Source: Eledone cirrhosa (lineage: Eukaryota). From it: DNA of 64,000 nt. This document shows positions 731 to 907 of this stretch, piece by piece. Position 1 is the stretch's first letter, and each line of letters opens with the position of its first letter. The stretch covers positions 281,604,001-281,668,000 of the forward strand of contig OZ024743.1 of assembly GCA_964016885.1 (NCBI GenBank), in the 5' to 3' direction. The translations under genes and the position numbers were made by a program. The notes under the pieces are model-generated. The model searched no databases and was not told the DNA's origin. It saw only the letters and a program-made list of their open reading frames with translations.

Positions 731-907
731 ATTTTTCCATTATCTCTGTTGCTTTCATTTCAATTTCATAAGAAACTTTCCCAACAGCATTCAAGTAATC
801 CATGACATAAATAGTAGCAGCCAGGCTCAAGATGTTTCCTTCTCCATTTGTGATAGGATCATTTACTATATTTTCTAGATATGATAAACCAGGCCATAAC
901 ATGTTGC
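731..907 (-). CDS. A2M-like exon (start of thioester domain): [58 protein letters not shown]
   Basis: ttttag|GCAAC...AAAT|gtatga, 177 bp, phase 1/1. Aligns to 'GD.LG..L.NL..LL.MP.GCGEQNM..FAPNIYVLDYL'. Confidence 0.9.

What the first reader, a model, noticed from the sequence alone, without database searches (positions are those of the whole stretch)
731..907. Alpha-2-macroglobulin-type gene that has lost both thioester residues (GCGEQ -> TNGEG)
Seen: this exon reads ...[26 protein letters not shown] at the position of the canonical ...LLxMPxGCGEQNMxxFAPNIYVLDYL. Cys is replaced by Asn and Gln by Gly, while all visible exons stay open with intact splice sites. The A2M-type cysteines are kept (SCLCG, KICS, ICPS). 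Established: the Cys-Gln thioester gives covalent capture; known thioester-less members include complement C5, chicken ovostatin and Drosophila Mcr/Tep6. Inference: a lineage-specific, non-covalent protease trap or a repurposed (egg, secretory or structural) macroglobulin under continued selection.
Basis: partly seen in the sequence, partly recalled or inferred. Interest (0 to 1): 0.75.

Follow-up and report, generated by a model that had tools for sequence, protein, structure and literature searches.

The report
Cephalopod alpha-2-macroglobulin without a thioester
Octopuses and argonauts carry a second copy of the protease-trap gene alpha-2-macroglobulin that has lost the chemical hook used to bond its targets yet is better conserved than the normal copy next door, so it likely holds a narrow set of proteases by shape alone.

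Summary
The minus-strand exon 907-731 reads [10 protein letters not shown] where GCGEQ is expected. The motif is identical in three Octopus species, Argonauta and two unnamed transcript-derived proteins. A 5,161-nt contig matches the exon alone with no difference, which points to splicing.

The 233-kb gene has 37 located coding exons with open frames. One 229-nt segment is absent from the assembly, probably in a gap. A normal GCGEQ alpha-2-macroglobulin (A2M) lies in tandem 121 kb upstream.

The loss is old and concerted: 23 of 72 conserved TED-domain sites are lost, against 1 of 72 in the neighbour's clade. The protein is nonetheless more conserved than the neighbour (Octopus-Argonauta 86% vs 68%). 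This holds most for MG1 (96% vs 35%) and for the normally variable bait region (76% vs 31%), which is acidic.

It groups with A2Ms, probably molluscan ones, and lacks the LDLa domain and membrane anchor of MCR. Best reading: a non-covalent, narrow-specificity oligomeric trap (0.45). Rival: a non-inhibitory binder (0.35). Thioester loss has precedents (chicken ovostatin, C5, MCR). I found no description of this paralogue in nine literature searches.

The parts
731..907 (-). Exon encoding the start of the TED domain with the degenerate thioester site (P0001 residues 1026-1084)
837..851 (-). TNGEG in place of GCGEQ (Cys to Asn at 848-846, Gln to Gly at 839-837)
2329..2421 (-). Exon, first CUB half (residues about 994-1025)
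6546..6597 (-). Exon, MG7/CUB junction with ICPS (residues 977-993)
9246..9347 (-). Exon, MG7 with KICS (residues 943-976)
10601..10750 (-). Exon, MG7 with SCLCG (residues 893-942); starts in phase 0
19853..20052 (.). 200-N assembly gap inside the 43-kb microsatellite-rich interval; inferred place of the missing 229-nt coding segment (residues about 817-892)
54152..54287 (-). Exon, second half of the acidic bait region and the plug (ILDYF; conserved Arg replaced by Leu); ends in phase 2
54399..54504 (-). Exon, end of linker and first half of the bait region
61550..61617 (-). Exon with the RKKR furin-type site (61612-61601)
62025..62136 (-). Exon, linker region (residues 676-712)
63760..63906 (-). 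Exon, MG6 first half (residues 627-675). Fourteen further coding exons lie upstream of the window and thirteen downstream (gene span G000:C4 281,799,903 to 281,566,680)

Best explanation
This is a transcribed, signal-peptide-bearing alpha-2-macroglobulin paralogue, conserved across octopods, that cannot form the Cys-Gln thioester and likely works as a non-covalent, narrow-specificity protease trap that would need to be an oligomer. Shown: loss of both thioester residues and of the residues around them; an otherwise complete MG1-8/CUB/TED/NTR architecture; a bait-length segment; retained plug and channel motifs. Inferred: it is secreted and cut at RKKR into two chains; it sits in the closed, native-like state; a protease that accepts the acidic, aromatic bait cuts it, the plug withdraws and the protein collapses; the protease is then held by a cage of subunits, perhaps linked through the two new cysteines (C81, C287) and closed by the strongly conserved MG1.
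For: TNGEG is invariant in 23 of 23 stored full-length sequences from the four orthologue clusters. Open frames, AG/GT ends and a signal-peptide exon are present. A 5.2-kb contig matches the exon alone. Against run X1, 10 of the 11 listed differences are synonymous (the tool listed 11 of 20). TED lost 23 of 72 conserved sites against 1 of 72 in the canonical cephalopod clade, including the specificity loop and the STQDT stretch; the conserved MG8 Met is also lost. The bait is 49-50 aa, within the canonical molluscan range of 40-58, and has pLDDT under 50. The YVLP lid and Tyr-Phe plug are kept; these form the trigger in PMC9156758 and PMC9352918 (passages). The lost Arg is dispensable for the conformational change in human A2M (R732A). 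Tetramers do not need the thioester to inhibit, and chicken ovostatin inhibits without it. An inter-subunit MG1-TED contact closes the cage in frog A2Moo (passages); MG1 is the best conserved domain here. The C-terminal model matches native A2ML1 (TM 0.66) better than induced A2M (0.36).
Against: Monomeric family members need the thioester to inhibit, and the known octopus inhibitor is a dimer, not a tetramer. A conserved, acidic bait with at most 2 Lys/Arg is a poor general bait (6 of 6, against 9 of 98 canonical). The Arg before the plug is present in 98 of 98 canonical baits and 0 of 6 here. Also, 14 of 92 conserved sites outside TED are lost, against 3 of 92 in the neighbour's clade, which would also fit loss of the whole conformational cycle. 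The native-like model may only reflect the canonical sequences that dominate its alignment. Low bait pLDDT may reflect that few rows cover it. No activity, tissue or oligomer data exist. A 229-nt coding segment is not seen in this assembly.
Confidence: 0.45

Rival explanations
1. A repurposed, non-inhibitory secreted binder, carrier or matrix component. It stays in one conformation and uses the conserved MG1/linker/former-bait surface to bind a specific host partner.
For: Conservation peaks at MG1, linker and bait rather than at the catalytic core. A predicted helix lies in the bait at the conserved LWEQFY stretch (low confidence). The post-cleavage docking Arg and its MG6 Asp partner are both replaced. 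An extra Ser/Thr-rich, low-confidence linker precedes the NTR domain. The long stem (1.05-1.59 changes per site) followed by slow evolution is typical of a new function. A TEP-related barnacle settlement cue is a precedent for repurposing (passage).
Against: Bait length, flexibility, plug and channel are all retained. No partner or tissue is known.
Confidence: 0.35
2. A C5-like switch: one dedicated host protease cuts the conserved bait, and the conformational change exposes binding sites for a receptor or effector, with no trapping.
For: Thioester loss together with a retained trigger, an RXXR site and a C-terminal NTR/C345C-like domain parallels C5. A conserved cleavage region suits a single cognate enzyme.
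Against: No anaphylatoxin domain. The NTR-like domain and RXXR site are shared with the canonical neighbour. The Arg that docks on MG7 after activation in C3b/C4b is lost.
Confidence: 0.14
3. A pseudogene in this species, or an assembly artefact.
For: A 229-nt coding segment is missing and its omission would shift the frame. The length of the X24 contig fits a transcript either with or without it.
Against: All 37 located exons are open. The protein is 86-88% identical to intact orthologues, which carry the segment and the same motif. A 200-N gap lies in that interval. The listed changes are synonymous-biased.
Confidence: 0.03
4. A member of the MCR (macroglobulin complement-related) or CD109/iTEP group.
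For: MCRs also have a mutated thioester.
Against: No LDLa domain and no C-terminal hydrophobic segment. It falls on the A2M side of a 100/100 split from CD109. Grouping with CD109 is rejected only narrowly (p-AU 0.044). It lies in tandem with a canonical A2M.
Confidence: 0.03

Closest known systems
Canonical cephalopod alpha-2-macroglobulin (O. vulgaris CAI9724160, P0083; the tandem neighbour in G000)
   Same: Same Pfam architecture, RXXR site and NTR-like tail. Same strand, 121 kb apart in G000. Near-consecutive accessions and the same chromosome length in O. vulgaris.
   Different: Only 28% identical. The neighbour keeps GCGEQ, the Ser specificity loop and a variable bait.
Chicken ovostatin and human OVOS1/2 (GSGEQ, GGGEQ)
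   Same: A2M-branch proteins without a thioester; chicken ovostatin is a tetramer that still inhibits, mostly metalloproteases (passages of PMC12874980 and PMC7016707).
   Different: Independent loss. The human ovostatin motifs keep Gln, whereas here both residues and the pocket are gone. NTR tail and furin site are present here. Oligomer state unknown.
Complement C5
   Same: No thioester, RXXR site, NTR/C345C-like tail.
   Different: No anaphylatoxin domain; A2M-type bait.
MCR / Drosophila Tep6
   Same: Mutated thioester.
   Different: No LDLa domain, no transmembrane helix.
Barnacle settlement-inducing protein complex (SIPC)
   Same: A TEP-related glycoprotein used outside immunity (passage of PMC3861396). 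That it lacks a thioester is recalled, not read.
   Different: Arthropod protein; not compared by sequence here.

Membership tests
Alpha-2-macroglobulin branch of the TEP superfamily | MG domains, bait-region domain, CUB, TED and receptor-binding MG8 in order | tested here: met
   Pfam; models with mean pLDDT 83.6 and 82.8 whose best matches are A2ML1/A2M
Alpha-2-macroglobulin branch of the TEP superfamily | Groups with A2Ms rather than CD109/iTEP | tested here: met
   100/100 split from two CD109 rows; molluscan A2M group 80/89 (mixture model) and 98 SH-aLRT (LG+G4)
Thioester-bearing A2M protease inhibitors | CGEQ thioester | tested here: not met
   TNGEG
Thioester-bearing A2M protease inhibitors | Specificity residue about 110 residues downstream (Ser in molluscan A2M) | tested here: not met
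   Loop diverged and shortened by three residues
Thioester-bearing A2M protease inhibitors | Plug-in-channel trigger (YVLP lid; Arg-x-x-Phe plug) | tested here: inconclusive
   Lid and Phe kept, Arg lost
Thioester-bearing A2M protease inhibitors | Protease inhibition after bait cleavage | not testable with these tools
   Needs purified protein
Ovostatin-like non-covalent traps | Tetramer or other closed oligomer | not testable with these tools
   Needs native mass or cryo-EM
MCR | LDLa domain in place of the bait | tested here: not met
   No PF00057 hit, no LDLa Cys pattern
MCR | C-terminal transmembrane helix | tested here: not met
   Best hydropathy window 0.69-0.96 against 1.77-1.84 in CD109 controls
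MCR | Placement in the MCR clade | not tested
   No MCR sequence among the stored proteins
CD109 / iTEP | GPI signal and clade membership | tested here: not met
   No hydrophobic tail; p-AU 0.044 against the grouping
Complement C3/C5 | Anaphylatoxin domain | tested here: not met
   No Pfam hit and only one Cys between RKKR and the bait
Complement C3/C5 | C-terminal C345C/NTR domain | tested here: met
   Atlas feature hits to NTR clusters at 0.92; the same Cys pattern occurs in canonical molluscan A2Ms, so it is not diagnostic
CPAMD8 and C3 clades | Tree placement | not tested
   No such sequences in the trees

The most novel reading that the evidence does not exclude
Coleoid cephalopods turned one of two ancient molluscan A2M genes into a dedicated, thioester-free, disulphide-linked receptor or switch. 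Its former promiscuous bait became a fixed recognition motif for one cognate protease or ligand, paralleling the origin of complement C5 but from the A2M branch.
Probability: 0.2. Interest if true: 0.75.

Novelty: new variant of a known kind. Interest (0 to 1): 0.5.

Why it matters
It is a natural experiment on what the A2M scaffold does without its chemistry. The sites lost with the thioester map the pocket and separate it from the trigger. A bait under purifying selection inverts the usual pattern and predicts a specific partner that can be sought. Databases label these proteins as ordinary 'alpha-2-macroglobulin-like', 'murinoglobulin' or 'pregnancy zone protein', so cephalopod immune studies may be pooling a covalent trap with a protein that cannot be one.

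Tried and rejected
Alternative GCGEQ exon: none in 184 kb, six frames.

Missing segment: not found in the region or in a genome-wide search, which hit only the paralogue's exon at a meaningful E-value. The X24 contig length (2,812 nt upstream of the exon) fits a transcript with or without it, so this is undecided.

Run search: no RNA holder listed; library type is not on record for X24.

Complex prediction of two copies of MG1-MG4: no verdict (score 0.01, alignment not used).

Sister group: unresolved. Grouping with the cephalopod canonical A2M (p-AU 0.09 and 0.23) and with the gastropod/scallop-type lineage (0.285 and 0.293) are both allowed. Shared derived sites were 10 vs 5 vs 13, so uninformative.

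Deeper orthologues: among the best 150 of 3,316 cluster representatives only P0002 exceeds 35% identity. Clustering at 50% hides members, and Nautilus was not tested.

Gene-wide dN/dS: not possible, no orthologous coding DNA was at hand.

Literature: nine searches found no description of this paralogue. Subscription journals are not searched. The octopus A2M purification paper and the SIPC paper were not held under the ids tried. No supplements were read, and supplementary proteome tables could list this protein under a generic name.

Earlier-findings look-ups by sequence and by words were empty.

Full report
OBSERVATION. The minus strand of window 907-731 is a 177-nt exon with canonical AG/GT ends in phase 1/1. 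Its translation aligns without gaps to the thioester region of human A2[10 protein letters not shown] over PYGCGEQNM, and hits Pfam TED_complement. Cys is replaced by Asn and Gln by Gly at 851-837; each needs at least two base changes. A contig from run X21 reproduces 575-1057 exactly, though it may be the assembly's source. A 5,161-nt contig from run X24, of the same coded organism, matches only the exon with 0 differences, and that run has zero depth in the adjacent intron bin 934-1150. I infer a spliced transcript; the run's library type is not on record.

THE GENE. Using the O. vulgaris orthologue P0001, I located 37 coding exons from an ATG with a signal peptide at G000:C4 281,799,903 to the stop at 281,566,680. 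All junctions are AG/GT, and both halves translate without an internal stop. One segment, residues about 817-892, was found neither in the region nor in a genome-wide search. The flanking exons end in phase 2 and start in phase 0, so skipping would shift the frame. A 200-N gap lies in that 43-kb repeat-rich interval and all orthologues carry the segment, so an assembly gap is the likely cause; this is not proven. No CGEQ-coding stretch exists in six frames of 184 kb from exon 2 to beyond the stop.

ORTHOLOGUES AND SELECTION. The exon finds four clusters: O. vulgaris, O. sinensis and O. bimaculoides; Argonauta hians; and two unnamed clusters on 5.4-6.0 kb contigs. Of 338 stored proteins, 323 had an alignable motif: 292 GCGEQ, 23 TNGEG (all from these four clusters) and 8 others. 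The unnamed pair is 57-59% identical to Octopus and forms the sister branch to octopods. That they are squid or cuttlefish is my inference from depth: the canonical paralogue from a Sepia-containing cluster is 51% identical to its Octopus counterpart. Among the best 150 of 3,316 representatives nothing else exceeds 35%. Against run X1, 10 of 11 listed exon differences are synonymous where 22% would be expected; the tool listed 11 of 20.

THE NEIGHBOUR. A canonical A2M with GCGEQ lies on the same strand at about 282.08-281.92 Mb, ending 121 kb upstream of the ATG. No other A2M exon was found between them. The two genes also share contig lengths in O. sinensis and O. bimaculoides, but not in the fragmented Argonauta assembly. 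The two proteins are only 28% identical.

WHAT WAS LOST. With 30 non-cephalopod TEPs as reference, four TNGEG sequences lack 23 of 72 conserved TED sites and 14 of 92 elsewhere; four canonical cephalopod A2Ms lack 1 of 72 and 3 of 92. Losses include the motif's flanks, the Trp of STWLTAF, the specificity loop (three residues shorter), STQDT and the conserved MG8 Met. That this Met shields the thioester is recalled from C3; the MG8-TED pocket in general is described. The Arg equivalent to A2M R732 is present in 98 of 98 canonical baits and 0 of 6 here.

WHAT WAS KEPT OR GAINED. The full domain set is kept, along with an RXXR site, the YVLP lid and Tyr-Phe plug and an NTR-like tail. Octopus-Argonauta identity is 86% against 68% for the neighbour, MG1 96% against 35%, linker 95% against 44%, bait 76% against 31%. 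Against the unnamed lineage the TNGEG protein is not ahead everywhere: TED 59% vs 63%, MG6b-MG7 49% vs 56%, with species not matched. The bait is 49-50 residues and acidic (net charge -0.18 to -0.25 per residue against a median of -0.02, although 5 of 98 canonical baits are as acidic). Two cysteines are specific to the clade, C81 in MG1 and C287 in MG3.

MODELS. AlphaFold2 models of an Argonauta N-terminal part and an unnamed orthologue's C-terminal part are confident (mean pLDDT 83.6 and 82.8). The bait is below 50 with a tentative helix, and the Ser/Thr linker is disordered. The C-terminal model resembles native A2ML1 (TM 0.66, rmsd 4.4) more than induced A2M (0.36). The N-terminal model does not discriminate between states. 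Alignments were dominated by canonical proteins, so these results show compatibility only.

PLACEMENT. All trees put the clade on the A2M side (100/100 against two CD109 rows) on a long stem, inside a molluscan A2M group with moderate support (98 SH-aLRT under LG+G4; 80/89 under the mixture model). Its sister is unresolved. Unionid bivalves appear in two A2M lineages (Cristaria and Potamilus), so the duplication may predate cephalopods. MCR, C3 and CPAMD8 were not in the trees; MCR is excluded by domain content.

MECHANISM. Passages of PMC9156758 state that monomers need the thioester, tetramers do not, and the octopus inhibitor is a dimer. PMC9352918 shows that the plug-in-channel is the trigger and that R732A still transforms. 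The frog A2Moo preprint describes an inter-subunit MG1-TED contact closing the cage. A retained trigger, a flexible bait, conserved MG1 and new cysteines therefore favour a non-covalent oligomeric trap with narrow specificity (0.45). A fixed bait sequence, the lost docking Arg and losses outside TED favour a binder (0.35) or a C5-like switch (0.14). All functional steps are inference.

LITERATURE SEEN. Matched passages only: PMC7016707, PMC4361686, PMC10142993, PMC9156758, PMC12874980, PMC9352918, PMC12939704, PMC9363628, PMC3861396, PMC3349304 and bioRxiv 10.1101/2021.09.22.461418. Other papers were seen as listings. Thioester loss is common: 5 of 11 Biomphalaria TEPs. None of the passages read describes a thioester-less molluscan protein of the true A2M branch; the snail 'A2M-2' with GGGEM was classed as MCR by another study. 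No supplements were read.

VERDICT. Real, conserved and apparently undescribed: a new variant of a known kind. Interest 0.5.

Noticed in passing
L025 (G000:C5:48,201,967-48,202,125): Another TEP exon with GSGEQ (Cys to Ser), resembling the GCGEQ exon at C18:37.31 Mb (L023); a second thioester loss in this genome, possibly the C3 duplicate of an earlier finding.
   Followed up: partly
L020 and L021 (G000:C1:441.62 and 441.98 Mb): Two GCGEQ exons with identical translation 359 kb apart (CD109-like by recalled resemblance); a recent duplication or an assembly duplicate.
   Followed up: no
window 54717-57399: Degenerate 50-bp minisatellite of about 52 copies in the intron before the bait exons.
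   Followed up: partly
window 26196-28713 and 43026-45535; 40576-41241 and 41030-41695: Near-identical blocks (98.8% over 2.5 kb; 99.6% over 0.67 kb) and about 19 kb of microsatellite-like sequence in the window, mostly in the 43-kb interval; retroelement-like frames by eye.
   Followed up: no
P0063, P0217 against P0206, P0213, P0227: Bivalves hold two deep A2M lineages; the canonical cephalopod A2M groups with Potamilus/Solemya (81/97), not with gastropod A2M. Potamilus P0063 also has an inserted Ig domain.
   Followed up: partly
P0006, P0007, P0009: Annotated Octopus isoforms that end before or lack the NTR-like tail.
   Followed up: no
P0322, P0264, P0203: Other unnamed A2M-type proteins with degenerate motifs (QGGEL, GSGEQ).
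   Followed up: no
L003 and window 731 junction (residue 1084): The invariant Gly after the thioester helix is Cys in the octopod proteins and one unnamed orthologue, a possible new free thiol in TED.
   Followed up: no
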